The translations under genes were made by a program, and so were the position numbers. Under the pieces are notes generated by a model. The model was not told the DNA's origin, ran no database searches, and was given only the letters and a program-made list of their open reading frames with translations. Positions 41,063 through 61,897 of a stretch of DNA of 64,000 nucleotides are shown here, piece by piece. The DNA comes from Holosporales bacterium (GTDB lineage: Bacteria; Pseudomonadota; Alphaproteobacteria; JAJTHO01): positions 30,060 through 94,059 of the forward strand of contig JBKCUA010000006.1 in NCBI GenBank assembly GCA_046318675.1, given 5' to 3'. Every line of letters begins with the position of its first letter. Position 1 is the stretch's first letter.

Positions 41063-41074
41063 ATTCCCATAGCC

Positions 41075-41761
41075 ATGCGGTGCTTGATTCACTCTTCCCC
41101 CTCCCCTAATGCTGATGCGCGGCGATTGCCTATCTCCATGCTGGTGCTGCACTATACCGGAATGCCCAGCGGCGTGGAAGCCCTTGCCCGCCTGAGGGAT
41201 CCAGCCAGTAAAGTCAGCGCCCATTACCTCATTGACGACGAAGGCACCATCCATGGATTAGTGGCCGAGGATCGCCGTGCCTGGCACGCTGGGGTTGGCT
41301 TCTGGAGGGGCGTCACCGACATTAACAGTGCCAGCATCGGCATTGAGCTGGTCAACCCCGGCCACACCTGGGGCTATCGCCCCTTCCCCTCCGGGCAAAT
41401 TGAGGCATTATTGGAACTGCTTCAAGACATCACCCAACGCCACACCATCCCCGCCCACCACATCATCGCCCACAGCGATCTTGCCCCCGCCCGCAAGCAA
41501 GACCCCGGGGAGCTGTTTCCTTGGAAGTACTTGGCAAACAAGGGCTTTGGCCTCTGGCCGGATGACAGAACCCCGCCCGGTGATCCCAATGCGTTGATCA
41601 GCCTCCTCCACGCCCTTGGCTACGATCCCGCCGCCGATCCCGATGCGGTGATCACGGCCTTCTGCCGCCACTTCGCCCCGGAGCAGTTGGCAATGCGGGA
41701 TAGGGAGATTTTAGCGGGACTGGCCGCCAGTCTAAGAAATATCTCGTCAAGCCCCCGTTGA
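41075..41761 (+). CDS. N-acetylmuramoyl-L-alanine amidase (Amidase_2, AmpD-like)
   Basis: Start trimmed to MRCLIHSSPSPN. LVLHYTGM, SAHYLID, AWHAGVGFWRG, IGIELVNPGH, HSDLAP. The start position is tentative. Confidence 0.78.
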   Translation: MRCLIHSSPSPNADARRLPISMLVLHYTGMPSGVEALARLRDPASKVSAHYLIDDEGTIHGLVAEDRRAWHAGVGFWRGVTDINSASIGIELVNPGHTWGYRPFPSGQIEALLELLQDITQRHTIPAHHIIAHSDLAPARKQDPGELFPWKYLANKGFGLWPDDRTPPGDPNALISLLHALGYDPAADPDAVITAFCRHFAPEQLAMRDREILAGLAASLRNISSSPR

Positions 41762-49317: not shown

Positions 49318-49642
49318 TATTGCCATCAATGGTCGCCCCTACACCGTAGCGTGTGAACAGGGGCAGGAAGAACGTCTGCACCATATTTCTGGCGAACTCT
49401 CCGTCCGCGCTAAACAGATTAGCGATGCCTTGGGCGCGCTGCCGGACAGTAAGCTTTTTTTGCTATTAAGCCTTATGCTGATGGATGAGCATCTTGATGA
49501 GAAACAGCGTCTTGCCGAACGTGTCCAGCGCCGCCGCGAAGCCGTTGAGGCAACCTTAGCGGAAGATATCCGCACCGTCAGCAACCGGATTATCACCCTC
49601 GCCGGGCGGGTAAAGAGCTTAGCGGAACGAGTAGCGGCGTAA
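49304..49642 (+). CDS. zapA: cell division protein ZapA
   Basis: GTG start. VPPLDIAINGRPYTVACEQGQEERLHHISGEL followed by a coiled coil. Confidence 0.8.
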   Translation: MPPLDIAINGRPYTVACEQGQEERLHHISGELSVRAKQISDALGALPDSKLFLLLSLMLMDEHLDEKQRLAERVQRRREAVEATLAEDIRTVSNRIITLAGRVKSLAERVAA

Positions 49643-49691
49643 GGCGTTTACCGGTGCACCTGAGAATGGCAGCCCGCATTTTTTCAAAAAA

Positions 49692-50228
49692 TCAATTTGT
49701 ATTAATGATAAAATCTTGTTTTTTATCACAATAATTAAATAGCATTGTATGAGGATAGTCATTTGCAGCAGTCTCAAGCACTTTAATTACCTCTGAAACA
49801 GGTATACGATACACGTATTTTTGACGCTCATAATCAGAACACACCTTCACTCCATCCCAGTTTCGATTTTTGTCACGATATGCATACATTACTCCACTAT
49901 GTATCAATTGATTACAAACGAATATAGTATTTTGCGCGACCATCTCTTCTCTTTTAAAATCGTATAGAGCATCAATTGAGCATCGATTCAGATTACTGAC
50001 TTTTCCGATGCAGGGGCTTCTAAATATTTGCAAACTCAGCTTTATAGTATTTGATGACAACTTGTATCTTTCTGCAAGCCAACGAACCATAAACATACTA
50101 ATAACTATATCTTTTTCGAAGTTTATTTCACTTCGCTCACTCCACCGTGGCGGCTTGGTTTTATGTTTAAATTTCTTTGCGTACTGAGCAAGAGTCTCTT
50201 TCCAATAACATGACTCAACATGTATCAT
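49692..50228 (-). CDS. hypothetical 178-aa protein in an AT-rich segment
   Basis: Long ORF in a clearly AT-rich stretch. Its ATG overlaps the stop of the upstream nucleotidase gene (ATGA). No recognisable family. Confidence 0.45.
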   Translation of the reverse strand: MIHVESCYWKETLAQYAKKFKHKTKPPRWSERSEINFEKDIVISMFMVRWLAERYKLSSNTIKLSLQIFRSPCIGKVSNLNRCSIDALYDFKREEMVAQNTIFVCNQLIHSGVMYAYRDKNRNWDGVKVCSDYERQKYVYRIPVSEVIKVLETAANDYPHTMLFNYCDKKQDFIINTN

Positions 50229-50905
50229 ATATAATCATTTTTTCTAAAAAGTTTAAAATTTCTCTCCTCCAACCACACCCCCGGACACGCCGCCACGTGG
50301 TGAATATAGTGTTTATTAACAAAATCTTCGCCATTTCCATCGGGCGTAATCAGCACCGTCTGCATCCCCAAAGCATGAGCCGGGGCAAGGTTTTGCGGCA
50401 AATCCTCAAACATCACCGCCTTGGTAGGATTCACCCGGCACGCGGCCAGCATCGCCTGATAGGTCTGGATATCCGGCTTGGGGCGATACCCTGCCTGATG
50501 AATATCAAAGATTGCATCCATATGATCAATCAAGTTCAGTGCCTTTAAAATATTTTCCGCATGCCGCCGCGAACCATTGGTAAAAACCACCCGTCGCCCG
50601 GTAAAGTTTGCCAAGTACCGGCGCAATACCGGGTTATCGGGAATACTACCTGTATCAACATCATGAACATAATCCATAAAATGGTGCGGATCAACGCGGT
50701 GGTTACGCATTAACCCGATCAGGGTCGTCCCATAGTCCAAAAAATACTGTTTTTGCAAAGCAAACGCCGCCGCCCGTTCCAACTTCAGCAACGCCTGAAC
50801 ATACGCCGTCATCCGCTCTTCTACCGCGGCAAAAAAAGAACAACTAGCTGGATACAATGTGTTATCCAAATCAAAAACCAACGCGCTGGGCAGAAAATTT
50901 GTCAT
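50225..50905 (-). CDS. HAD-superfamily pyrimidine 5'-nucleotidase-like hydrolase
   Basis: FDLDNTLY (DxDxT), VFTNG, FEDLPQNL. Confidence 0.8.
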   Translation of the reverse strand: MTNFLPSALVFDLDNTLYPASCSFFAAVEERMTAYVQALLKLERAAAFALQKQYFLDYGTTLIGLMRNHRVDPHHFMDYVHDVDTGSIPDNPVLRRYLANFTGRRVVFTNGSRRHAENILKALNLIDHMDAIFDIHQAGYRPKPDIQTYQAMLAACRVNPTKAVMFEDLPQNLAPAHALGMQTVLITPDGNGEDFVNKHYIHHVAACPGVWLEERNFKLFRKNDYI

Positions 50906-51838: not shown

Positions 51839-52504
51839 TTATCGAATTGTACTAGGCAATTGCGCGGCCGCCAGGCGCAGTTCATACAAAAGACCTTCCA
51901 CCCGGCCGCCGCTGCGCTGAATCGTTGCGCCATACTGATTACGTAGCACCGCCACCATGCTAAAGCCCTCAATTTCCATATCTAAAACACGCAACCCAGC
52001 CCGATCGCGAGCCACGCGCCAACCCACCTGGATAATTCGCCCGGTCACTGGGTTTGTCACCACCGACAACACCCGTACCTGATCCGTTGCTAACGGCAAC
52101 GATCCAAGCACCTGCAACGTGTGCCCACGATAACGCCGCAGGCGTTCCCGATAATTCAGCATATTGGCGTACTCAAAAAGACGCACGAATTCCTGTTGCT
52201 GCTGATACGTGGCAATAGACCAATACCGCCCCAGCACCAAGGGGGCAATCCGCTGTACATCAAAATGGCCACGGTAGATTTGCTGAAAACGCTTCAAGCG
52301 TTGCTCTTCTGGAATATTTTGATTAGTCAGCTCTCGGATGGCAGCTTGAGCAAGGGAATCAACAAACGCCTCGGCTTGCTTGGGAAACGATGCTACTGGT
52401 GCCACCCCCGGCTGAGGCGATGCAGATTGTTGCGCCCAAACTGGCCGCGCAAACAGACATAAAACCAACCAAACAAACAGCCTAGTTTTTCGCCGCCTCT
52501 CCAT
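51839..52504 (-). CDS. MlaC/Ttg2D-like phospholipid-binding periplasmic protein (copy 2)
   Basis: Start trimmed to MERRRKTRLFVWLV. DVQRIAPLVLGRYW...QQQEFVRLF...WRVARDRAGLRVLDMEIEGFSM. Confidence 0.75.
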   Translation of the reverse strand: MERRRKTRLFVWLVLCLFARPVWAQQSASPQPGVAPVASFPKQAEAFVDSLAQAAIRELTNQNIPEEQRLKRFQQIYRGHFDVQRIAPLVLGRYWSIATYQQQQEFVRLFEYANMLNYRERLRRYRGHTLQVLGSLPLATDQVRVLSVVTNPVTGRIIQVGWRVARDRAGLRVLDMEIEGFSMVAVLRNQYGATIQRSGGRVEGLLYELRLAAAQLPSTIR

Positions 52505-53120
52505 AGGTTTTGCGCCGCATCTCCTCCAGCAGTGGGGCCACTTTTCCGCCATTACGCTCAATCACCGCAGCATACTCCGACCGCAAGGTCAAGATCATGC
52601 TTATTCCCTCCACACCAACATCCACAATCCGAAACATCCCATCTGAACCCTTTTGCACGCGCCACTCCAACGCTACTGCCTCATTGGAGACGGGATCGAT
52701 GACTCGACTGTCCACCAAAACATATTGACCCGTTCCATCGAGACGGGAGCTAACAACCTGCAACTTCTGGCCACGATAATTTTTCAATTTATTTCGGTAC
52801 AACCGCATATTGGATTCCTTGAACAGCTCGACAAAATCACGCTGCTCCAACGGCGTAGCAACATTCCAGTACCGCGCCAGCACTAGGCGGGGAATACGTT
52901 GACTGTCAAAATTTTCCGCATAAGCCTTGGCAAAAGTATCCAGCCGCGCCTGCTCCGCCACGGCGGGATCATTGAGTTGGTTAATAACCCGATCGGCAAG
53001 ACTGGCAATAAATGCTTCGGCAACCGCCCGTCGCTGAGGATCATCCTGTGTTTCTTGCGCCAACACAGGCAAGGACACACACAACAACCAAACGAAAAAA
53101 AAGATGAATTTACGCATCAT
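52482..53120 (-). CDS. MlaC/Ttg2D-like phospholipid-binding periplasmic protein (copy 1)
   Basis: Signal peptide. DSQRIPRLVLARYW...EQRDFVELF...WRVQKGSDGMFRIVDVGVEGISM. Confidence 0.8.
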   Translation of the reverse strand: MMRKFIFFFVWLLCVSLPVLAQETQDDPQRRAVAEAFIASLADRVINQLNDPAVAEQARLDTFAKAYAENFDSQRIPRLVLARYWNVATPLEQRDFVELFKESNMRLYRNKLKNYRGQKLQVVSSRLDGTGQYVLVDSRVIDPVSNEAVALEWRVQKGSDGMFRIVDVGVEGISMILTLRSEYAAVIERNGGKVAPLLEEMRRKTYGEAAKN

Positions 53121-53938
53121 TAAAAATCCTCAAAGGCCTCATCATCGCTTCGGGTGACGGCGTCCCCCGGCTTGCGATTATCAATAAGATAGGTGCGATT
53201 CTGATAGTACAAGCTCCGAATGGAGGCATAGTAATCCAAACTATCACGGCGCAGATCGTTTATAATCTCCAGTCTCTCCTCCCGTGTTGCCAGCGCATCC
53301 GCCGGGTATTGACCATACATTACTTCATCGTACATTGATGCTTTATCAAAGCGATTGGTCACCAACCGCACAGGGTCTAACACCCAATCTACAATCCGGC
53401 CAACGGTATCACGAGCATTAGAGGGCCCAAAAAACGGGAGCATGGTATAAGGTCCCTCTCCCGCACCCCACACGGCCAAGGTCTGGCCAAAATCTTCTGA
53501 TTGCCACGCCACGCCCTCATCCCCAGCAACATCAAAAAGCCCAAGTACACCAAACGTGCTGTTAATCGTAAATCGGGTCAGGGCATCCCCCGCCGTCCGC
53601 AATTCCCCTTGCAACAAGGCGTTCACAAACACCTGCGGCTCACTTAAATTACTCAACACACCCCGTACGCTGTGCCGGATAGGCAGGGTGGTAACAGAGC
53701 GATAGCCCCTAGCCGCAGGCTCAAGAATATAATCATCAAGGCCAAGATTAAAAGAAAAAATACCCCGGTTCACCGACTCCCACGGATCGCTCACCGCACG
53801 GGCATCGGCCATGGGCGGCACCGGCCTCGTCAGCAATGGAGTGGTCGCCGAATAGGAAGGCCGCTGCGCCGCAATGGCCGCAACAGAAACCAAGCTAAAC
53901 CCCAACATCAACGCAATAAACAACCGCATGGCCACCAC
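53120..53938 (-). CDS. mlaA: MlaA/VacJ family lipoprotein
   Basis: DPWESVNRGIFSFNLGLDDYILEPAARGYR is the VacJ signature. TAATG junction with the downstream mlaC-like gene. Confidence 0.88.
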   Translation of the reverse strand: MVAMRLFIALMLGFSLVSVAAIAAQRPSYSATTPLLTRPVPPMADARAVSDPWESVNRGIFSFNLGLDDYILEPAARGYRSVTTLPIRHSVRGVLSNLSEPQVFVNALLQGELRTAGDALTRFTINSTFGVLGLFDVAGDEGVAWQSEDFGQTLAVWGAGEGPYTMLPFFGPSNARDTVGRIVDWVLDPVRLVTNRFDKASMYDEVMYGQYPADALATREERLEIINDLRRDSLDYYASIRSLYYQNRTYLIDNRKPGDAVTRSDDEAFEDF

Positions 53939-54279: not shown

Positions 54280-54311
54280 TAATCGGGGCATACTCTTTAT
54301 TGATTTTCAAC

Positions 54312-54542
54312 ATGAAAATTTCAGTTCATGCCTTGGTTCTGGCTTTAGTTTTTTCAGCACCCCTTGGTGCTTGCGCAGCAAAAGAAGAGGAGCCTCCAGC
54401 TCCCATCGCTCCCCCAGCTCCCCCTACCGGGGAGCGAGTGTGCAAAATACAGAAAAAAAAGGAATGCTTTAACATTCCCGCCCCCTCACCCTCCCCCTGC
54501 GGGGATTGGGGGGGAGATTGCAAACCAAAACCAACTAACTAG
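54312..54542 (+). CDS. small Cys-containing putative lipoprotein (76 aa)
   Basis: MKISVHALVLALVFSAPLGAC (lipobox-like LGAC), a Pro-rich linker, then four further Cys. Confidence 0.45.
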   Translation: MKISVHALVLALVFSAPLGACAAKEEEPPAPIAPPAPPTGERVCKIQKKKECFNIPAPSPSPCGDWGGDCKPKPTN

Positions 54543-54552
54543 TTAGTTGGTT
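54529..54552. repeat. 24-bp perfect palindrome spanning the stop codon of the small lipoprotein ORF
   Basis: aaccaactaact/agttagttggtt, checked base by base. Confidence 0.9.
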
Positions 54553-54692: not shown

Positions 54693-56060
54693 CTAATCTC
54701 GCAATGCTCTCTTCTGTATATCACTGATGGGTCGCGTAAGGTAACTAAGCACCGATCTTTTACTCCCTAAAATACCAATATCCGCCGTCATACCGGGAAC
54801 AATCCGCATATCCGCCCGGATAGTGGTAGGATCAATGCCAACAACAACCTTATAATAGAGTTGTCCGGTACGCTCATCGGCAAAACTGTCGGCACTAATC
54901 GTATCAAGTTTACCCTCTAAGGTGCCATAACGGGAATAATCCCACGCCGTAAGCCGCACTTCAGCCTTAAGACCTGGCCAAATTTTACTGCGATCTCGAT
55001 CTGGAATCCTGCCCTCAATCACTACACGCCCCCCCGTAGGAGTAATCTCAGCAATAGTCTCCCCAGGTTTTATGACACCACCCAAAGTATGAATGTTGAG
55101 TTTGTTGACAATACCAGTGTCTGGACTAACGACCTCGGTGCGTTGAACCCTATCTGCCTCAAGCTTTTGCCGCTGTTCCAACTGGGCGAGATTTATTTGT
55201 GTTGTTACCAATTCTTCCCGCGCTTCTTTTTGATAGCGCGACCACGCTTCAGCTTTCTGGCTTTCAACTTCTTTAGCCTCCGCTTCCGCAATCTGAATTG
55301 CTCCAGCAGCGTTATCTTTATCTACTGAAAGCTGACTGGCGCGATTCCGAGCATCGAGCAACCGATTACGGGATGTAGCTCCAGCAGCGAATAGTTCTTG
55401 CATATTTTTCAATTGCTCATTGGCAATAGCCAACTGCCCCGTCAACCCAAGCAGACGCGCCTTATTCGTTTCAATAGAGACTTGTTTTTGACGATAGCGC
55501 TCTTCTAGCGTATTAATTGTTTGCATCATCAAATCACGTTTTGTTTGAAAAGCTTGTTCTTCTGTACGTGCTAAATCACCCGTTGCCAGACGAACATCAT
55601 CGGGAATAATGAATGTTTCGAGGTTTTCTGCTTCTGCGGTAAGGCGCAAGATTTTAAGCCGCAGTCCGGCCACATTACCTTCATTTTCCATCAAGGCACT
55701 GGCCGCCGCCTGATTGCGAATCCGAAACAACACATCGCCCGCCTGTACAACACTGCCTTCCGTTACTAAAATATCTTCTACTAAGCCGCCTTCAAGATGC
55801 TGAATAACCTTGTTTTGTCCTGCGGGAATGGTTTTACCGGCACCATGCACGGTCTCATGCACTTTAGCCAGCGCAGCCCACAACAATATCGTCACCAACA
55901 TCGCACTAAAAAGAAGAATAATAGACTCGGCATCCGTGCGCGGTTTACGCCAGAACCGCAACCATTCCCGATAGGCAAAGACACCATGCTTCTTCGTAAG
56001 AAGAATGCACTTGTGTGCAAGAATAGCATGACGCTGAACTAGAGGCATTAGTCGCTTCAT
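54693..56060 (-). CDS. HlyD family type I secretion membrane fusion protein
   Basis: One N-terminal TM helix, lipoyl-like VQAGDVLFRI, long coiled coil, and a C-terminal beta-barrel (IVPGMTADIGILG). Confidence 0.9.
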   Translation of the reverse strand: MKRLMPLVQRHAILAHKCILLTKKHGVFAYREWLRFWRKPRTDAESIILLFSAMLVTILLWAALAKVHETVHGAGKTIPAGQNKVIQHLEGGLVEDILVTEGSVVQAGDVLFRIRNQAAASALMENEGNVAGLRLKILRLTAEAENLETFIIPDDVRLATGDLARTEEQAFQTKRDLMMQTINTLEERYRQKQVSIETNKARLLGLTGQLAIANEQLKNMQELFAAGATSRNRLLDARNRASQLSVDKDNAAGAIQIAEAEAKEVESQKAEAWSRYQKEAREELVTTQINLAQLEQRQKLEADRVQRTEVVSPDTGIVNKLNIHTLGGVIKPGETIAEITPTGGRVVIEGRIPDRDRSKIWPGLKAEVRLTAWDYSRYGTLEGKLDTISADSFADERTGQLYYKVVVGIDPTTIRADMRIVPGMTADIGILGSKRSVLSYLTRPISDIQKRALRD

Positions 56061-57778
56061 GATGCACCTGCCGAAGCAGTCAACCGCCGCAACACCTCAT
56101 CCTTACCACCATCAGCAGTGATCTGCCCGCGATCTAACACTAAAATACGCTGGGTTAAATCCAATACCGGCAACCGGTGGCTCACCGTAATCAAAGTTTT
56201 AGTCGCTAGGATAGGAGCCAAATTGCGTAGCACATGAAGCTCCAAAAACTGATCCATATCCGAAGTGAACTCATCCATAATCAATAAATCGGGGTTATGT
56301 ATCAAAGCGCGCGCCAGAGCGATCATCTGTCGCTGCCCCCCGGAGATATTCTGACCATCCTCCGCAATGGGCAAATAAACTCCTGTTCCACTACTCCCAA
56401 TCCAAGCGGTAATCCCCGTCAGGTGTAAAATCTGATTTAGCCACGCAGTATCGGGCATCTCCCGATAAAAAAGAATATTATCTTTCAAAGTACCCCGAAT
56501 AAAATTGGGATATTGAGGCACAACCCCAAGACGAGCATTAAACAACGATGGCGGAACATAGCGAAGATCATAGCCATCCACCAACACTCTCCCCTCTGCT
56601 GGAGTCACCACACCAGACAAAAGACGCAACAGCGTCGTCTTCCCGCTCCCCGATGCTCCAACAATTCCGACTTTCTGTTGCGGAGCAATGATCAGACGGG
56701 GAATACGGAGCGCATCAACGGCACTCATCCCATAACGACACCGAATATCTTCAGCAACCATAACCCCGATAGTCAAAGGGGTATCAGCAGGAATCTGCCT
56801 GTTTTTATTATCATAAAGGGTGGGGCGTTTCTGGAGATCATCAATACTTTTCAATGCAGCTCGCACCATGGGCAAAGCAGAGATTACTTGAGCCACCCCC
56901 ATTGCCGTGGCCATGGTGCGTCCCGCAAGAATATTAATCGCTATTAACCCCCCCACGGTCAACGCCCGCGCCTGCACTTCCCATACCCCTATGCATAAAA
57001 TCAGCACCGCACCCACCTGTACCAGCAATTGTTGGGTTGACGCGCTCAAAGCATTCAGATGATTCTTATGAAAAATTATTTTCTGCAAATCGGCCACAGC
57101 TTTAGAAAGTTTACGCCGAGGCTCTTGTGCCGCATTATACAATCGAAAACTTTCTTGATTACGGAGAAATTCCAACACCTGCTCATCATGTATTTTTTGT
57201 GTCTTATCTTGGTTTTGTGCCCAGCGCAAGCCGCGCTCCTGCCAATTGTATGATAGTATTATCATCATCGCAGCCATAATAAGCGGCACCAAGGCCAGCA
57301 CCGGGCAAATAAAAAATATTACCAATAAGAACAATAATAGAAAAGGAATATCAACCAACACGGGTAAAAACCGCTGACAATAAAAATCCCGTACTAAATC
57401 CACTTCCCGAAAAAAATACTGTTGCCTACTAATAGAATAAGGCAAACTATCCAAACGTAACGATAATAGCGTATCAAATAACTTACCCTCCAACGCTGCC
57501 CCTGTCCGCAACGTCTGGCGGTCAATCGTTCGATGCCTCGCCAAGCGCAAAGCAAGTTCAAACCCCAGTGCAATCAACATCCCCAACGTCAACGCCGTTA
57601 AGCTATCAAGAGCAAAATAAGGAATCACCCGATCATATACCGCCCGAGTGTAAAGGGGTAGAGCCAACGTCAACGTATTAATGGTAAATGAGGCAAGCAA
57701 CACGTACCAAGCACGCGAACGATTATCCCATAGCGGCTCCCAAAAGGAACCCATTTTATTTTGTAACCACTCCCACAT
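56057..57778 (-). CDS. type I secretion system permease/ATPase (PrtD class, no C39 domain)
   Basis: Six-helix TMD. Walker A GASGSGKTT, signature ISGGQRQ, Walker B LLIMDE, H-loop VSHR. 4-nt overlap with the MFP gene. Confidence 0.92.
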   Translation of the reverse strand: MWEWLQNKMGSFWEPLWDNRSRAWYVLLASFTINTLTLALPLYTRAVYDRVIPYFALDSLTALTLGMLIALGFELALRLARHRTIDRQTLRTGAALEGKLFDTLLSLRLDSLPYSISRQQYFFREVDLVRDFYCQRFLPVLVDIPFLLLFLLVIFFICPVLALVPLIMAAMMIILSYNWQERGLRWAQNQDKTQKIHDEQVLEFLRNQESFRLYNAAQEPRRKLSKAVADLQKIIFHKNHLNALSASTQQLLVQVGAVLILCIGVWEVQARALTVGGLIAINILAGRTMATAMGVAQVISALPMVRAALKSIDDLQKRPTLYDNKNRQIPADTPLTIGVMVAEDIRCRYGMSAVDALRIPRLIIAPQQKVGIVGASGSGKTTLLRLLSGVVTPAEGRVLVDGYDLRYVPPSLFNARLGVVPQYPNFIRGTLKDNILFYREMPDTAWLNQILHLTGITAWIGSSGTGVYLPIAEDGQNISGGQRQMIALARALIHNPDLLIMDEFTSDMDQFLELHVLRNLAPILATKTLITVSHRLPVLDLTQRILVLDRGQITADGGKDEVLRRLTASAGAS

Positions 57779-57795
57779 ATTTTCCCTTAAACAGG

Positions 57796-59646
57796 CTAAA
57801 GTTGCCCAGATTGTTCTGTTAGACTAAAACCAAGACTTTGCAGAATATTCCGTCGAGCGGATGAATCATCACCGCGCAGATAAGGCTCAGCCTGCCCTGC
57901 CTGCGACAAAAGATCAACAATGGCAAACGCATAATCACTGCGCAATCCAACCCGACGCAGGGATGCCTGCTGAATTTTTTCAACATTATCAGCAATAACA
58001 ATCAAATCAAGCTCACCAAGCTTAAATTGACGCTCATACGCTGCATAAAGCTTAATATGTGTCTCGTATTCTTTATCAGCTAGGCGAATCTGCTCTGTTA
58101 AGCTCTCCAAATCCGAAAGCCCCTTACGTACAGATTGGAGCATATCTTGGCGTTTGATATCAAGATCAAATCGAGCACTGCGAATCTGGCTAAGCAACTT
58201 TCGTTGTCCAGCACTATTCAAACCCCCGTCATAAAGACGGTAACTAAGCTGCAAACGTGCCGCTGCTGACTTAACAATACCTGTATCACCACCAACATCA
58301 CGGGACTGATCTCCATCAAGCAATGCATCCAAACTTGGTAGACTTTTGCCGTACTCAGCCCGCTTGCGTCGCTCTAAAACCTCAATTTCACCCTTAGCTA
58401 TTTTTAAATCAAAGTTGTTTTGCTCAGCAGCACGAATGAGATTATCCTGCATCATCAGCGTATCCGGTATAGTAATACTATACATATCGTCAGGGAGTAT
58501 CGATTTAATCCGTCGCTGTACCCCCGTGTACCGCCCCAAAGCAATCCAAGCTTCCTCAAGACTTGCCTGAGCCGTTTTGATTTGCTGCGAGAGGCCAAGG
58601 ATACGCCCCTCCATATATGTCGCCTCTGCCTTACTGGCATCACCTTTTTTGACCCTAGATTGCAAAATTGCGTGCAAATGCTCAAGCCTACTGCGATTTT
58701 CTTCAAGAAAACCTATTTGCCCCTGCAGTCGCCAGCTATTAATGTAGGCGGCAGTTGTGCGCACCACCACTTCCTGATTGATTTTGTCACGACTAAATTG
58801 AGTTACTTCTTCGGCCTTTTTTCGCTCAGCAAAGGCGGCTGATTTACTGCCCCCATCATAAATATTCTGTCTGGCATTAAATGTTGCCTGACCAGAATTA
58901 TTATACCCAGAACCTGAAAAAGTATCCGTACCGCTGCTCGACCGCGTGCGAAACGGGCTGTTATATTCTCGAGATAAAACACCCCGTATATCCGCCGTTG
59001 GCCGATAAGCAGCACGGGCTTCATCTACACCCGCACGCGCTTCTTCAAGGCGTTCCCGGGCAATGGCTACCTCCGGCATTGCCGCCATTGCATCTTCTAG
59101 AATAAGATGCAATGATACCACCTCACCATCAGCCCCACGCGGCGGCACCGTTGCTGCCTCGGCAGAACTCGACTTCGCAGGCTCAGGAGCAGACTCAGGA
59201 GCAGTAACTGCCACCGCCACTGCCTCAACCGGGGCAGCTTCACGAGGGGCTTCTGCCACTGCCTCAGGAGAACTGTCGGGCACAGCTTCTGCAGGGGCAG
59301 GGACTTCAGATGCCTGAACCGCTTGAGTCAGTTCCTCTTCAACTGTTCCCGGCGTTGTCACGGGCACGGATGGTGCCGCAGTGACAATTTGAGGTTTTTC
59401 TGCAACAGGTTCTGTAACAACAGCAGATGCAGGTACAGCAGCCGGCACCGGGGTAGCGACCGCAGCACTTTCGCCTTCTTCGGGGATTTTATCAGGCGCA
59501 GGTGCCACAGGATAAGCACCAATAAGACCCCATATATCCTGAGCTGGCTGTTCTTGAGCGGCAACCAGCATTGGCTGTGCCAGCCCCAACAATACCGCTA
59601 CCATAAGGGTTTTATTGTGAAACACAAATCGCCCCCATACTCCCAA
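57796..59646 (-). CDS. TolC family outer membrane channel with an N-terminal Pro/Ala/Glu/Val-rich extension (alternative ATG start at 59604)
   Basis: From about residue 185 the two TolC repeat halves are recognisable (LEDAMAAMPEVAIARERLEEARAGVDEARAAYRPT...). The preceding ~150 aa are low complexity. Confidence 0.82.
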   Translation of the reverse strand: MGVWGRFVFHNKTLMVAVLLGLAQPMLVAAQEQPAQDIWGLIGAYPVAPAPDKIPEEGESAAVATPVPAAVPASAVVTEPVAEKPQIVTAAPSVPVTTPGTVEEELTQAVQASEVPAPAEAVPDSSPEAVAEAPREAAPVEAVAVAVTAPESAPEPAKSSSAEAATVPPRGADGEVVSLHLILEDAMAAMPEVAIARERLEEARAGVDEARAAYRPTADIRGVLSREYNSPFRTRSSSGTDTFSGSGYNNSGQATFNARQNIYDGGSKSAAFAERKKAEEVTQFSRDKINQEVVVRTTAAYINSWRLQGQIGFLEENRSRLEHLHAILQSRVKKGDASKAEATYMEGRILGLSQQIKTAQASLEEAWIALGRYTGVQRRIKSILPDDMYSITIPDTLMMQDNLIRAAEQNNFDLKIAKGEIEVLERRKRAEYGKSLPSLDALLDGDQSRDVGGDTGIVKSAAARLQLSYRLYDGGLNSAGQRKLLSQIRSARFDLDIKRQDMLQSVRKGLSDLESLTEQIRLADKEYETHIKLYAAYERQFKLGELDLIVIADNVEKIQQASLRRVGLRSDYAFAIVDLLSQAGQAEPYLRGDDSSARRNILQSLGFSLTEQSGQL

Positions 59647-60226
59647 ACAGTGCCTCTGTGCTGGCGTCCGCCTGTGTTTTGATTTTTATTTTATTGGCTG
59701 GGAACCCTGTTTCCAGAGCAAAGTTTCTCAACACCAAGGTGCGCTGCAATTGTATCTCTCGCCCCCAGCCGTACATATTAATCCGCTCCGCTACCGATGC
59801 CGTAATGGCCAGAACCCCACGGCATGTTTTAGAAAAACCTTTAAAATATTCCATAATTACGACTTTATTTTCTTCTGTAGGAACAGAACCAAAATCCTCA
59901 AACACGACACGCAACACACCGCCATCTGTCGTCACGGTCTGTTTTGACGAAGGCATAACAACCGCCTTGATATTCTGCAGCAATTTTGTCATGCTTTCAA
60001 TTTCTTCCGCGACTTGAGAACGTTGCTGCTCTAAAAGACTAATTGTTGAATCGGCTTTTTTTGCTTCAGCAATAGCTTCTTGAGCCGCACGCACATAATT
60101 AGTCCCCATATAAAACACGATCATAGAAACAATCATCATGAAAAATACGAAGACAATCAGCACCGTGGATAAAATATCCACAAACCCAGGCCACGGCACC
60201 TCATCAGTATCATCAGAACCAGCCAT
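59612..60226 (-). CDS. MotB/ExbD/TolR-like (SiiA-like) single-pass protein with a degenerate OmpA-like C-terminus
   Basis: WPGFVDILSTVLIVFVFFMMIV has an Asp at the cytoplasmic edge of the single TM helix, as in MotB-type stator plugs. A coiled-coil linker follows. The C-terminal QLQRTLVLRNFALETGFPANKIKI resembles the OmpA_C tail. Confidence 0.6.
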   Translation of the reverse strand: MAGSDDTDEVPWPGFVDILSTVLIVFVFFMMIVSMIVFYMGTNYVRAAQEAIAEAKKADSTISLLEQQRSQVAEEIESMTKLLQNIKAVVMPSSKQTVTTDGGVLRVVFEDFGSVPTEENKVVIMEYFKGFSKTCRGVLAITASVAERINMYGWGREIQLQRTLVLRNFALETGFPANKIKIKTQADASTEALFGSMGAICVSQ

Positions 60227-60231
60227 AATAC

Positions 60232-61686
60232 CTACTCCTGCACTTTATCTGCTGAGCTTAAAATAATTCCTCCGGAAACAGCTTTATCGATAGAAGCCAA
60301 ATGCGCTCTTAAATCAGAAAAACCTTTTTCTATATCAAACCGCTCAGTATCAACACTGTTCGCTGTGGTCATTACCAATGCCTCAATTTGACTGAGCAAA
60401 ATATCACGTTCTTGCGTCCGAGCACTCTCAATAGTCAGAATATAATATTGAAACACACCAATAAGCGTTGCGAAACGATTAACCCCATTTTTTATTTCTC
60501 TTGTGTTATCAATAATATGTGCAAATTGTGGGCCAAAATTTTCTTTTAATGCCTGCTCTAACAACCCAACAATTTGTTCGAGATTCTTGTTAAGATTTTT
60601 CTGTAAATCTGCAAAGATAGCCCGCACCGTACTTTCAATAGCACGCTGCACCCCAGCTTCAATCGCATCAATAATTTGAACAGCCGCCGCATTACTACTA
60701 CTATGCAAAGCTGCTTCAATACGGGTGCCACTGTCTTCCAGATGCCGCTCTAGATTTTTCGCCATACTGGCCACCACAGAAAGATTGGTGCTGTGTGCGC
60801 CTAGATGCTGCTCTAGGCTTTTTGTTAGTTCCGTCACAGCGTTCGCTGTAGGATTAGAAGAAATCGCCTCTTTATAGGTGGGCGCATTATCAATATGATC
60901 ATCAATCCAAACACTGAGGTCTTCAACAAAACGATCTTGAATTTTTGAAAACAGAACCCCCATGAGCCCCAGAATTAAAGACCCACAAAGACCAAACAAC
61001 GAGGCGCTAAAAGCAATTCCCATCCCCTGCAATGGGGCAGAAACAGACCCCAAAAAGTCAATAAACATCTTATCTGCTGATTGCGCTTTTTCTATGGGAT
61101 CGACATCGTTGTTCCCTTTTTGCGTTGCTTTATCCATGGTTTCCACCACGGCATGCATCGCATCGCCCACCGAATTAATTGTCTCTAGCAGCCCCCAAAA
61201 TGTCCCTATAAGACCCAACATAATCAATGTTGCCGTCATATAAGAAACTCGCCCCCTCAATCGTCCGAGCCGGGCACCGAGTTTTGTTTTAATGAGGCGA
61301 GCCTCAGTATCCGTAAAACCTATTTTTCGATTCTTCTTTGCACGTTCAATAACCGCACGCATTTGCGTGCTACGCAGAATACCCGTATCAGCTAATTCTA
61401 CAATTTCTTGAACAGCTAAAGGATCGATACTTCCCATCTCCACCACACGCTGCCATAAGGTGATCGATCTTGCCGTGCGAGCCACGTGCCACCAATTAAG
61501 GCTCGCCAACACCAATCCTAAAAAAAATGTTGCAATAATAAAACTATTCAATCCAGGATGCGCCATAAAGCGCAGGACAATTTCATCGCGCAACGAGAAA
61601 CAAAAAAATGCTATGGCAACTAGCGCAACGCTTGGCACAATAGGTCGGTACGATGTGTTCATAAAAGTCTTATCCATCAAGTGCAA
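60232..61686 (-). CDS. MotA/TolQ/ExbB family proton-channel protein with a ~230-aa helical C-terminal extension (SiiB-like)
   Basis: TM pair at the N-terminus. MLGLIGTFWGLLETI resembles the GLxGTVWGI motif of TolQ/ExbB. A second TM helix is GMGIAFSASLFGLCGSLILGL. A long predicted helical tail follows. Confidence 0.7.
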   Translation of the reverse strand: MHLMDKTFMNTSYRPIVPSVALVAIAFFCFSLRDEIVLRFMAHPGLNSFIIATFFLGLVLASLNWWHVARTARSITLWQRVVEMGSIDPLAVQEIVELADTGILRSTQMRAVIERAKKNRKIGFTDTEARLIKTKLGARLGRLRGRVSYMTATLIMLGLIGTFWGLLETINSVGDAMHAVVETMDKATQKGNNDVDPIEKAQSADKMFIDFLGSVSAPLQGMGIAFSASLFGLCGSLILGLMGVLFSKIQDRFVEDLSVWIDDHIDNAPTYKEAISSNPTANAVTELTKSLEQHLGAHSTNLSVVASMAKNLERHLEDSGTRIEAALHSSSNAAAVQIIDAIEAGVQRAIESTVRAIFADLQKNLNKNLEQIVGLLEQALKENFGPQFAHIIDNTREIKNGVNRFATLIGVFQYYILTIESARTQERDILLSQIEALVMTTANSVDTERFDIEKGFSDLRAHLASIDKAVSGGIILSSADKVQE

Positions 61687-61778
61687 TCCATTACGATGAG
61701 CCGTATTTCACAATAGTAAAAAAATCGTTACGGCCGTTGCAGCACGCAACTGCTTGGCAAGCTATTAAGCTGTGGCGG

Positions 61779-61790
61779 AGAGAGAGAGAG
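61779..61790. repeat. (AG)6 dinucleotide repeat in the divergent intergenic region
   Basis: Direct reading: ggagagagagagagcc. Confidence 0.9.
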
Positions 61791-61897
61791 CCGGATTCTA
61801 TTCCGTCAGAATAACCGCGATATGTTTTTAAAACCACCCCCACCCCCCTTTCTCCCCTGTTGCCCTTCGCCCTACGCCCCTCTAATCTGCCCCCACC

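What the first reader, a model, noticed from the sequence alone, without database searches (positions are those of the whole stretch)
54693..61686. Type I secretion operon led by a MotA/ExbB-like and MotB-like proton-channel pair, with no substrate gene in cis
Five same-strand genes are tightly packed, with gaps of 5 and 17 nt, a 4-nt overlap, and a fourth junction that is either a 35-nt overlap or a 7-nt gap depending on the TolC start. (1) A 484-aa protein carries a TolQ/ExbB-type TM core (LGLIGTFWGLL, GMGIAFSASLFGLCGSL) and a ~230-aa helical tail. (2) A 204-aa single-pass protein has an Asp at the inner edge of its TM helix (FVDILSTVL) and a degenerate OmpA-like end. (3) TolC. (4) A PrtD-class ABC exporter. 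(5) A HlyD adaptor. Canonical T1SS are powered by ATP alone. The only described parallel I know is Salmonella SPI-4, where SiiB (MotA-like, ~460 aa) and SiiA (MotB-like, ~210 aa) accompany SiiCDF and the giant adhesin SiiE. Here the sizes match but the gene order differs. The host looks alphaproteobacterial, no giant adhesin or RTX gene is adjacent, and the TolC carries an unusual extension. This may be an uncharacterised PMF-assisted T1SS variant. Alternatively the stator-like pair could be a Zorya-type or other motor module that is merely co-located.
Basis: partly seen in the sequence, partly recalled or inferred. Interest (0 to 1): 0.8.

Follow-up and report, generated by a model that had tools for sequence, protein, structure and literature searches.

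The report
Stator-coupled type I secretion operon
This is an intact type I protein-secretion operon fused to a proton-channel "stator" pair, and it belongs to a previously undescribed alphaproteobacterial family. In almost every other member the operon sits beside a giant calcium-binding RTX surface protein, much like the single known Salmonella SiiAB case.

Summary
Five tightly packed minus-strand genes (54693-61686) encode a MotA/ExbB/ZorA-fold protein (484 aa), a MotB-like protein (204 aa), TolC, an ABC exporter and a HlyD adaptor. The MotB-like protein has an invariant transmembrane Asp and a compact OmpA-like domain.

The pairing is not chance co-location. In 22 distantly related loci (about 24-40% identity; Micavibrio-like, Rickettsiales and other alphaproteobacterial MAGs) the MotA-like, MotB-like and TolC genes are always contiguous. 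The LssB-clade ABC and HlyD genes lie directly downstream, directly upstream, or divergent. In 21 of these 22 loci a giant RTX protein (1351-2594 aa) is adjacent.

The window and its closest relative, a Holosporales MAG, are the exceptions with no RTX gene nearby. None occurs anywhere in the 64 kb. All five genes are nevertheless under purifying selection (dN/dS 0.04-0.12).

The predicted B-subunit domain superposes best on Salmonella SiiA (TM 0.85, rmsd 2.3 Å). The A subunit matches ZorA, TolQ and ExbB folds weakly but consistently. No Zorya partner genes are present.

Best reading: a SiiAB-like, proton-driven accessory motor of a giant-RTX-protein T1SS. I call it a new variant of a known kind. 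Its function is inferred and was not tested.

The parts
60232..61686 (-). A subunit: MotA/ExbB/ZorA-like proton-channel protein (484 aa). It has four TM segments (about 16-36, 46-68, 149-170 and 222-246), a basic 77-aa cytoplasmic loop, an acidic 47-aa periplasmic loop, and a roughly 236-aa helical cytoplasmic tail.
   Evidence: ORF. Pfam MotA_ExbB 21.4 bits, E 2e-4. PADLOC ZorA1 2e-12. 24 of 27 homologues hit MotA_ExbB. AF2 model pLDDT 66 with Foldseek top hits ZorA, TolQ and ExbB. Hydropathy and charge. Invariant GLIGTFWG and PLQGMGIAFSASLFG core.
59612..60226 (-). B subunit: MotB/SiiA-like protein (204 aa). It has a single N-terminal TM helix with invariant Asp17 (WPGFVDILS), a helical linker, and a compact OmpA-like C-terminal domain with invariant R162, R167 and N168.
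   Evidence: ORF. Alignments. NCBIfam PRK09039 N-terminus 5.6e-8 and PADLOC ZorB1 3.5e-4. Profile against PDB: best hit C. jejuni MotB, 9e-4. AF2 pLDDT 77. Foldseek: OmpA-like, PomB and MotB domains, with the best superposition on SiiA-PD 6qvp (TMt 0.85, rmsd 2.3 Å).
57796..59646 (-). TolC-family outer-membrane channel (616 aa from the TTG at 59646; alternative starts at 59625 and 59604). It has a signal peptide and a roughly 150-aa A/P/V/E-rich N-terminal extension.
   Evidence: Pfam OEP 5e-35, two stretches. TIGR01844 4.8e-37, below its cut-off. N-terminal sequence and composition. A public gene call at 59468 would remove the signal peptide.
56057..57778 (-). T1SS ABC exporter (573 aa) of the LssB/LapB sequence clade, lacking the roughly 140-aa N-terminal C39-like domain. 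Walker A, signature and Walker B motifs are intact.
   Evidence: TIGR03375 3.8e-144 (481.6 bits, model positions 140-694), HlyB 283 bits, PrtD 250 bits. Pfam ABC_membrane and ABC_tran. Motifs are visible in the translation. Only 17 nt separate it from the tolC stop, so an N-terminal domain cannot be hidden upstream.
54693..56060 (-). HlyD-family T1SS membrane-fusion (adaptor) protein, 455 aa.
   Evidence: TIGR01843 8.4e-103, 344.6 bits, above the 208.65 cut-off. Pfam HlyD_3 and HlyD_D23. One N-terminal TM segment at 47-65.
61687..61897 (.). 211-bp divergent intergenic region between the motA-like gene and an aminotransferase gene. It is the presumed promoter region of the five-gene operon (inferred only).
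   Evidence: Gene layout. The consensus promoter scan was uninformative, with site counts at chance level.
54529..54552 (.). Perfect 10-bp-stem palindrome about 140 nt downstream of hlyD. It is a terminator-like candidate for the 3' end of the operon.
   Evidence: This is a consensus match only, not evidence of function.

Best explanation
The five genes form one operon for a type I secretion system (TolC, LssB-clade ABC, HlyD) with a built-in stator-type ion channel.

The channel most likely has five copies of the 484-aa A subunit around two copies of the 204-aa B subunit, as in MotAB, ExbBD and ZorAB. Protons would pass via the invariant Asp17 of the B subunit. The B subunit would be fixed to peptidoglycan through its compact OmpA-like domain. 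The long cytoplasmic helical tail of the A subunit would reach the cytoplasmic face of the secretion machine.

Across the family the cognate cargo is a giant RTX protein with a conserved N-terminal domain of about 110 aa. By analogy with Salmonella SiiAB, the motor most likely does not drive translocation, which the ABC ATPase does. Instead it would couple proton-motive force to a late step at the TolC end: holding the giant protein on the cell surface versus releasing it.

In this Holosporales-type lineage the cargo gene is not linked to the operon.

Shown here: gene content, folds, conserved residues, conserved synteny and purifying selection. Inferred: 5:2 stoichiometry, proton flow, peptidoglycan binding, co-transcription and the retention/release role.
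For: Folds and motifs:
- The A subunit gives MotA_ExbB near threshold, ZorA1 at 2e-12, and Foldseek top hits of ZorA, TolQ and ExbB with probability 0.97-0.99.
- The B subunit has an invariant WPGFVDILS Asp plus R162, R167 and N168. Its profile hits C. jejuni MotB. Its model superposes best on the SiiA PG-binding domain.

Synteny:
- In 22 distant loci plus the close relative L001, the motA-like, motB-like and tolC genes are always contiguous.
- ABC and HlyD are always nearby, and a giant RTX gene is adjacent in 21 of the 22 distant loci.
- The RTX proteins share conserved N- and C-termini.

Selection and inheritance:
- dN/dS is 0.04-0.12 for all five genes against the Holosporales relative.
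- IleRS (81% identity) lies on the same relative contig as the operon, so inheritance is vertical and chromosomal.

SiiAB precedent:
- SiiAB form a proton channel; Asp13 and Arg162/Arg167 are functional residues.
- SiiAB are not needed for secretion but control SiiE retention and release.
- PMF raises retention, SiiB binds the ABC protein SiiF, and the SiiE N-terminus governs retention.
Against: - No substrate gene lies in the window or next to the operon in the closest relative.
- A pattern scan with the class-1 RTX N-terminal domain found no copy in the Holosporales reference genome, though that method has low sensitivity.
- No significant sequence similarity to SiiA was found: 6qvp is absent from PDB sequence hits at E <= 10. 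SiiB could not be compared at all.
- A-subunit evidence is individually weak: Pfam is below the gathering score, Foldseek E is about 0.06, and the model pLDDT is 66.
- The window's B subunit lacks the Asp of the SDNP motif that class-2 relatives keep, so PG binding may be altered.
- Co-transcription and any effect on secretion are untested, and the promoter/terminator scan was uninformative.
Confidence: 0.72

Rival explanations
1. The stator pair actively energises export itself. PMF-driven rotation or pulling would help thread or unfold a megadalton-scale substrate through the ABC-MFP-TolC conduit, so secretion would fail without it.
For: There is strict co-occurrence with very large (1351-2594 aa) RTX substrates. 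In class 1, which includes the window, the pair sits in the same operon as an ABC that has lost its N-terminal substrate-handling domain, so a compensating function is conceivable. The A-subunit tail is cytoplasmic, where the unfolded substrate enters.
Against: In the only studied parallel, SiiE is still secreted without SiiAB. Many giant RTX adhesins are exported by ATP-only T1SS (general knowledge of the LapA and HlyA systems). The invariant adjacency is to tolC, not to the ABC or substrate genes.
Confidence: 0.15
2. The pair is a Zorya-type anti-phage module, or another independent ZorAB-like membrane sensor, that merely lies next to a T1SS.
For: The best profile matches for the A subunit are ZorA models (PADLOC ZorA1 2e-12; NCBIfam ZorA_2 weak), and the B subunit hits ZorB1 at 3.5e-4. 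The top Foldseek hits are ZorA structures. The A subunit has a ZorA-like long helical C-terminal tail.
Against: No ZorC, D, E, F or G-like gene is present: the flanks are an aminotransferase and tolC. The NCBIfam ZorA score is 13.5 against a cut-off of 100. The tail is about 236 aa, whereas the PADLOC ZorA profiles it matched are mostly about 680-1060 positions long. Linkage to TolC, T1SS and RTX genes is conserved in 22 distant loci, which a mobile defence island would not show. The context is housekeeping and syntenic with the relative.
Confidence: 0.03
3. The pair is a Tol/Ton-like envelope-maintenance motor that serves TolC generally, for example in outer-membrane tethering or efflux, in bacteria with reduced envelopes. 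It would have no specific link to the RTX cargo.
For: The trio motA-like, motB-like and tolC is the invariant unit, and ABC, HlyD and RTX can sit in a separate transcription unit. The operon persists under purifying selection in the Holosporales lineage without an adjacent RTX gene. mlaA and mlaC envelope genes lie just downstream in the window.
Against: LssB-type ABC and HlyD genes, and in 21 of the 22 distant loci an RTX giant, always lie within a few kb. No TonB- or TolA-like transducer is encoded. The related short paralogue pairs that lack T1SS genes also lack tolC.
Confidence: 0.08

Closest known systems
Salmonella enterica SPI-4 SiiA/SiiB accessory pair of the SiiCDF-SiiE type I secretion system
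   Same: A MotB-like subunit of about 200-210 aa with an N-terminal TM Asp and a compact OmpA-like domain: the window protein is 204 aa with Asp17, SiiA is 210 aa with Asp13. The predicted domain superposes on SiiA-PD at TM 0.85 and rmsd 2.3 Å. An Arg-x4-Arg pair sits at residues 162 and 167 in both proteins. The MotA-like partner is about 460-480 aa. In both systems the pair is encoded immediately before the TolC-like gene of a T1SS that, across the family, exports a giant Ca-binding surface protein with a functionally important or conserved N-terminus.
   Different: No significant sequence similarity to SiiA was detected, and SiiB could not be compared. The gene order is A-B here and B-A (siiA then siiB) in SPI-4. 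The cargo in relatives is an RTX-repeat protein, not a BIg-repeat adhesin. The hosts are Alphaproteobacteria (Holosporales, Micavibrio-like, Rickettsiales MAGs), not Enterobacteriaceae. The window's ABC lacks the C39-like domain that SiiF has. No cargo gene is in cis in this genome.
ZorAB core of Zorya anti-phage systems
   Same: ZorAB gives the best profile and fold matches for the A subunit. Both have a long helical cytoplasmic tail after the last TM helix, and a B subunit with a TM Asp and a PG-binding domain.
   Different: No ZorC to ZorG partner genes are present. Scores fall far below the NCBIfam cut-off (13.5 against 100). The tail is shorter. The conserved neighbours are TolC, ABC, HlyD and RTX.
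LapB/LssB-type T1SS for giant RTX adhesins (Pseudomonas LapA-LapBCE, Legionella RtxA-LssBD)
   Same: The ABC belongs to the TIGR03375 LssB clade, and class-2 relatives pass the curated cut-off at full length (701 bits). The adaptor is a HlyD-type MFP. The cargo in relatives is a giant RTX protein with a distinct N-terminal domain.
   Different: These described systems have no stator pair. No conserved LapG- or LapD-like neighbour was found. The window's ABC lacks the N-terminal C39-like domain.
Alphaproteobacterial MotA/TolQ/ExbB-like + PRK09039-type 'peptidoglycan-binding protein' pairs of unknown function
   Same: They have the same A-subunit core (28-46% identity over the channel region). 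In 24 of 56 loci the same B-subunit signature WPGFVDALS lies just downstream. They look like the sequence family from which the T1SS-linked pair derives.
   Different: The A subunit is short (about 320-380 aa) and lacks the long tail. No TolC, HlyD, LssB or RTX genes are nearby.

Membership tests
SiiAB-type T1SS accessory proton channel | B subunit of about 210 aa with one N-terminal TM helix carrying a conserved Asp | tested here: met
   The protein is 204 aa with one TM segment (22-40 at its core). Asp17 is invariant in 30 of 30 and 23 of 23 aligned homologues. SiiA is 210 aa, with a TM at 14-38 and Asp13.
SiiAB-type T1SS accessory proton channel | B-subunit periplasmic domain with the compact OmpA-like fold of SiiA-PD | tested here: met
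   The AF2 model has pLDDT 84-91 over residues 95-204. Foldseek against 6qvp gives TMt 0.85-0.86 and rmsd 2.3-2.4 Å over 104-110 residues, the best superposition among the OmpA-like hits. This rests on a predicted, not a solved, structure.
SiiAB-type T1SS accessory proton channel | Detectable sequence homology to SiiA and SiiB | tested here: inconclusive
   The profile of 30 B-subunit homologues did not list SiiA-PD among PDB hits at E <= 10. The SiiB sequence could not be obtained. SiiA itself shares only 6-13% identity with other OmpA-like domains, so absence of a hit does not exclude homology.
SiiAB-type T1SS accessory proton channel | Encoded with TolC-like, MFP and ABC genes and a giant secreted surface protein | tested here: met
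   The TolC, ABC and HlyD genes are in the same operon. A giant RTX gene is adjacent in 21 of 22 distant relatives. The cargo gene is absent from this window and from the closest relative's locus.
SiiAB-type T1SS accessory proton channel | Proton conduction and control of cargo retention and release | not testable with these tools
   This needs pH-reporter, mutant and surface-retention assays like those done for SiiAB.
MotA/TolQ/ExbB proton channel family (Pfam PF01618) | Score at or above the Pfam gathering threshold | tested here: not met
   The score is 21.4 bits against a cut-off of 22.9, and only residues 147-180 align. Support for the fold comes from elsewhere: 24 of 27 homologues hit the model at E <= 0.01, and ZorA, TolQ and ExbB are the top Foldseek matches.
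MotA/TolQ/ExbB proton channel family (Pfam PF01618) | Paired downstream gene for a single-pass protein with a TM Asp (MotB/ExbD/TolR/ZorB type) | tested here: met
   There is a 5-nt gap to the 204-aa gene, and the pairing is kept in all 23 other loci that reach that far.
Zorya anti-phage system | ZorA and ZorB above curated thresholds | tested here: not met
   NCBIfam ZorA_2 scores 13.5 bits against a cut-off of 100. The PADLOC ZorA1 2e-12 and ZorB1 3.5e-4 matches are partial.
Zorya anti-phage system | Adjacent ZorC/ZorD, ZorE or ZorF/ZorG effector genes | tested here: not met
   The neighbours are an aminotransferase upstream and tolC, ABC and hlyD downstream. TolC has no PADLOC match; the ABC and HlyD proteins match only non-Zorya models (generic ATPase-type families and a very weak PbeC match).
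Type I secretion system (ABC-MFP-OMF) | HlyD-family T1SS adaptor | tested here: met
   TIGR01843 scores 344.6 bits against a cut-off of 208.65.
Type I secretion system (ABC-MFP-OMF) | T1SS-type ABC permease/ATPase | tested here: inconclusive
   The best model is TIGR03375 (LssB) at 481.6 bits, below the 693.1 cut-off because model positions 1-139 are absent. The TMD and NBD are full length and the Walker A, signature and Walker B motifs are intact. A class-2 relative passes the cut-off.
Type I secretion system (ABC-MFP-OMF) | TolC-family outer-membrane factor | tested here: met
   Pfam OEP scores 121.5 bits against a cut-off of 22, with two repeats. TIGR01844 scores 127.9 bits, below its 225 cut-off.
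Type I secretion system (ABC-MFP-OMF) | Identifiable substrate (RTX or C-terminal-signal protein) in the genome | tested here: not met
   None lies in the 64-kb window. The rest of the genome was not available: only a 7.1-kb public copy of the locus could be fetched.
Flagellar stator MotAB | Match to MotA and MotB family models, and flagellar gene context | tested here: not met
   No NCBIfam MotA or MotB model matched at E <= 1. No flagellar genes are in the window. The cytoplasmic loop is only 77 aa.
Lap-type adhesin T1SS (LapBCE with LapG/LapD) | ABC with an N-terminal C39-like domain, plus LapG protease and LapD regulator | tested here: not met
   The N-terminal domain is absent from the window's ABC. 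No further gene family is conserved beside the loci, apart from an uncharacterised protein of about 345 aa in nine class-2 loci.

The most novel reading that the evidence does not exclude
The pair is a PMF-driven 5:2 rotary motor physically built into the T1SS. The B subunit would be anchored in peptidoglycan beside TolC, and the pentameric A-subunit tail would engage the ABC/MFP base. The motor would act as a clutch or winch that holds, tensions or releases a giant surface protein used by predatory and endosymbiotic Alphaproteobacteria to grip prey or host cells. In Holosporales the motor-equipped T1SS would have been kept for an unlinked, possibly non-RTX cargo. On this reading, stator-coupled T1SS would be an ancient and widespread mechanistic class, with Salmonella SiiAB as just one instance.
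Probability: 0.25. Interest if true: 0.8.

Novelty: new variant of a known kind. Interest (0 to 1): 0.62.

Why it matters
What SiiAB actually do for a type I secretion system has been open since 2014. It has been studied in one organism and with one cargo.

This finding adds a second family. By sequence it is not detectably related to SiiA; SiiB could not be compared. The family has about 90 clusters at 50% identity with the long-tailed A subunit. It is seen here in at least 24 loci from Micavibrio-like, Holosporales, Rickettsiales-like and other alphaproteobacterial MAGs.

Three features are conserved across the family:
- the invariant motA-like, motB-like, tolC trio;
- the conserved N-terminal domain of the RTX cargo;
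- the presence or absence of the ABC N-terminal domain.

These are testable clues to where the motor acts. Some members belong to culturable predators (Micavibrio), so the question becomes experimentally approachable outside Salmonella. The family also extends the list of jobs done by 5:2 ion-driven motors.

Tried and rejected
1. Zorya or another co-located motor module. Rejected because there are no partner genes, scores are sub-threshold, and T1SS linkage is conserved.

2. Chance adjacency. Rejected because of synteny in 22 loci at 24-40% identity.

3. Looking for the substrate.
- tblastn of two neighbour RTX proteins and GGxGxD counting over the window found nothing.
- Pfam on the five longest window ORFs gave housekeeping enzymes and one 904-aa ORF with no hit.
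- A pattern scan of reference genomes with the class-1 RTX N-terminal domain returned only the known loci plus one Micavibrio, with none in the Holosporales MAG. The wider 13-sequence alignment was too divergent to scan.

4. Extending beyond the window. The aminotransferase is not on record, and the only retrievable copy of the locus is a 7.1-kb contig.

5. Direct comparison with SiiA and SiiB. Two exact-pattern scans of reference genomes, built from published siiA mutagenesis primers, found nothing. The primers may target a recoded construct, or the reference strain may differ.

6. The PDB sequence search with the full A-subunit profile was dominated by coiled-coil noise from the tail.

7. 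The promoter/terminator scan was at chance level for promoters and does not resolve the transcription unit.

8. Legionella lssXYZABD was considered as a parallel. The papers read describe no MotA/B-like components there.

9. EHEC OI-28 and the Micavibrio genome paper describe RTX T1SS loci without mentioning a stator pair.

Full report
**Observation.** The junctions are a 5-nt gap, a 35-nt overlap, a 17-nt gap and a 4-nt overlap. The overlap becomes a 7-nt gap if tolC starts at the ATG at 59604, and a GTG at 59625 is also possible. Upstream and divergent lie an aminotransferase and a homoserine dehydrogenase. Downstream lie mlaA, two mlaC paralogues and a HAD hydrolase. The rest of the window is housekeeping: 2-oxoglutarate dehydrogenase E1, IleRS, transketolase, PPDK and one tRNA-Pro. 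No giant ORF or RTX-repeat ORF occurs anywhere in the 64 kb.

**What the proteins are.**
- HlyD: a T1SS adaptor above the curated cut-off (TIGR01843, 344.6 bits).
- ABC: a full TMD plus NBD with intact ATPase motifs. Its best model is the LssB clade (TIGR03375, 481.6 bits, against HlyB 283 and PrtD 250). It begins at model position 140, so it lacks the C39-like N-terminal domain. Only 17 nt separate it from tolC, so nothing is hidden upstream.
- TolC: two OEP repeats (Pfam 5e-35). After a signal peptide it has a roughly 150-aa extension rich in A, P, V and E.
- The 484-aa protein has four hydrophobic segments. A basic 77-aa loop between the second and third segments is presumably cytoplasmic. 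An acidic 47-aa loop between the third and fourth is presumably periplasmic. A 236-aa helical tail follows. It scores just under the Pfam MotA_ExbB threshold (21.4 against 22.9 bits), matches PADLOC ZorA1 at 2e-12, and 24 of 27 homologues hit MotA_ExbB individually. The AlphaFold model (pLDDT 66; core 74-89, tail low) finds ZorA, TolQ and ExbB chains as its best PDB matches. Probabilities are 0.97-0.99, but E-values are weak (about 0.06) and TM-scores are 0.4-0.5.
- The 204-aa protein has one TM helix with an Asp in the motif WPGFVDILS. That motif is invariant in every homologue examined. A helical linker follows, then an alpha/beta domain with invariant R162, R167 and N168. Its family profile hits Campylobacter MotB best in the PDB (9e-4). 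Its model (pLDDT 77, domain 84-91) matches OmpA-like PG-binding domains. The tightest superposition is on the Salmonella SiiA periplasmic domain (6qvp, TM 0.85-0.86, rmsd 2.3-2.4 Å).

The stated refutation condition ('not MotA/MotB-fold proteins') is therefore not met.

**Is the co-location meaningful?** A search of one genome per species with the A-subunit profile returned 80 loci. tblastn of the window's proteins against these loci, followed by ORF calling and clustering, shows the following.
- The long-tailed A subunit (429-640 aa) occurs in 24 loci, counting the window.
- Wherever the contig allows, it is followed directly by the B subunit and then by tolC.
- An LssB-clade ABC and a HlyD gene are always nearby.
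- In 21 of 22 distant loci a giant protein of 1351-2594 aa with 9-31 GGxGxD motifs is adjacent. Two that were tested gave Pfam HemolysinCabind at 1e-70 to 1e-80.
- No other gene family is conserved around these loci. The one exception is an uncharacterised protein of about 345 aa in nine of them.

Identities to the window are only 24-40%, so this is conserved functional linkage.

Two layouts exist.
- Class 1 (the window, L001, L003-L005, L012, L013, L021) has a single operon, motA-like, motB-like, tolC, ABC, hlyD. Its ABC is short (548-574 aa).
- Class 2 (Micavibrio-like and others) has a unit of RTX, ABC (688-744 aa, full-length LssB at 701 bits) and HlyD. That unit lies divergent from, or adjacent to, motA-like, motB-like and tolC.

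The trio of stator pair plus tolC is the invariant unit.

**The neighbouring RTX proteins.** They share a conserved N-terminal domain of about 110 aa with no Pfam model, and a conserved C-terminal region. I infer that they are orthologous cargo co-evolving with the machine.

**The lineage of the window.** The closest genome is a Holosporales MAG (JBKDWF01). It has the same five-gene order at 82-93% identity. Its IleRS is 81% identical and lies on the same contig, while the next-best IleRS hits are 52% or lower. Inheritance is therefore vertical and chromosomal. Neither the window nor that relative has an RTX gene next to the operon. Even so, dN/dS between them is 0.04-0.12 for all five genes, with dS around 1, so the whole system is maintained. 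A low-sensitivity pattern scan with the class-1 RTX N-terminal domain found no copy in the reference Holosporales genome. The rest of the source genome could not be reached. So 'no substrate in cis' is real, but it is a peculiarity of this lineage and not a property of the system.

**Origin.** Shorter A-subunit paralogues (about 320-380 aa, without the tail) occur in many Hyphomicrobiales, Rhodomicrobium and other alphaproteobacterial loci. In 24 of 56 of these, WPGFVDALS is encoded just downstream. None has TolC, HlyD or LssB genes. The window's B subunit also gives its best NCBIfam hit to the N-terminus of these PRK09039-type 'peptidoglycan-binding proteins'. I infer that the T1SS-linked pair is a tailed offshoot of that family. 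An exhaustive search with the 270-aa core found 1205 representatives at E <= 1e-3 and 398 at E <= 1e-10. About 90 are long proteins scoring at E <= 1e-23.

**Mechanism (inferred).** The parts list matches a 5:2 ion-driven motor: an A pentamer around a B dimer, proton passage via the B-subunit Asp, and the B subunit fixed to peptidoglycan. The only described T1SS with such a pair is Salmonella SPI-4. The papers read report the following for that system.
- SiiAB conduct protons, and Asp13 is needed.
- SiiA binds peptidoglycan through Arg162 and Arg167.
- SiiB binds the ABC protein SiiF.
- SiiE is still secreted without SiiAB, but surface retention and adhesion are lost.
- Raising the PMF increases retention.
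- The SiiE N-terminus controls retention and release.

The present family parallels this in subunit sizes and in the TM Asp. It also shares an Arg-x4-Arg pair at the same residue numbers, read from published siiA primers. The pair is likewise placed before the tolC gene, and the cargo is a giant protein with a conserved N-terminal domain. I therefore favour a role in PMF-dependent control of cargo retention versus release at the TolC end (confidence about 0.7 for a SiiAB-like accessory motor of the T1SS). Direct energisation of export (0.15), a general TolC or envelope role (0.08) and Zorya-type defence (0.03) are less likely.

**Comparison with the known and novelty.** Functionally and architecturally this is a SiiAB-type, stator-coupled T1SS. 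Membership in the SiiAB family by sequence could not be shown. SiiA-PD is not among the PDB sequence hits, and SiiB could not be retrieved. The closest sequence and fold relatives of the A subunit are ZorA proteins, but no Zorya effector genes are present and curated thresholds are missed by a wide margin. Full-text searches found SiiAB as the only T1SS-linked stator pair. These included reviews of T1SS, of 5:2 motors and of MotAB evolution, the Micavibrio genome paper and Legionella lss papers. None of the papers read mentions this alphaproteobacterial family. I class it as a new variant of a known kind.

**Limits.** Structures are predictions, and the A-subunit model is only moderately confident. 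Stoichiometry, proton flow, PG binding, co-transcription and any secretion phenotype are untested. The window's B subunit lacks the Asp of the OmpA-like SDNP motif that class-2 relatives keep. The cargo of this particular system is unknown.

Noticed in passing
window 54300-54542 (+) and 54529-54552: An 80-aa ORF with a lipoprotein-type signal peptide (…APLGAC) and a Pro-rich tail lies between hlyD and mlaA. It has no Pfam hit. A perfect 10-bp-stem palindrome sits at its 3' end and could be a bidirectional terminator.
   Followed up: partly
window 38540-41254 (-): A 904-aa ORF with one N-terminal hydrophobic segment and no Pfam match at E <= 1e-3. It is not RTX-like. Its function is unknown.
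   Followed up: partly
window 51839-53938 (-): mlaA is followed by two tandem mlaC paralogues (42% identical to each other), directly downstream of the secretion operon.
   Followed up: partly
L006 13618-14661 and equivalents in L009, L010, L014-L016, L018, L020, L026: A conserved ORF, about 345 aa in most of these loci, with no Pfam hit follows tolC in nine class-2 loci. It may be a further component of that variant, and it is absent from the window.
   Followed up: partly
L003 9440-9829, L006 9362-9751 and 17 other loci: The giant RTX proteins beside the stator/T1SS share a conserved N-terminal domain of about 110 aa (…VDILG.D…FPGLGLILFSE..AP…LLSKIG.VQNIT.KD..SFTS…). No Pfam model covers it. 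It is a candidate retention or recognition module.
   Followed up: partly
L002 (CAIOHY010000205.1, 2.9 kb): A contig binned as 'Cellvibrio sp.' carries copies of the window's motA-like gene (92% identical) and aminotransferase gene (98% identical) in the same arrangement. It is most likely a mis-binned contig from the window's lineage.
   Followed up: no
window 59468-59646; L081: A public gene call for the identical locus starts tolC at 59468 (553 aa), which would remove the signal peptide. The longer start is supported by conservation of the N-terminus in L001.
   Followed up: partly
L012 10439-12013, L013 2550-4046 versus window 57796-59646: The TolC N-termini differ by lineage. L012 and L013 have a lipobox Cys. 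The window, L001 and L003-L005 have a 100-150 aa low-complexity A/P-rich extension. L021 and class 2 have neither.
   Followed up: partly
window 49500-50500: A local GC dip (0.43, against about 0.52 in the flanks) covers a 178-aa ORF (49692-50228, minus strand) that has no Pfam hit.
   Followed up: no
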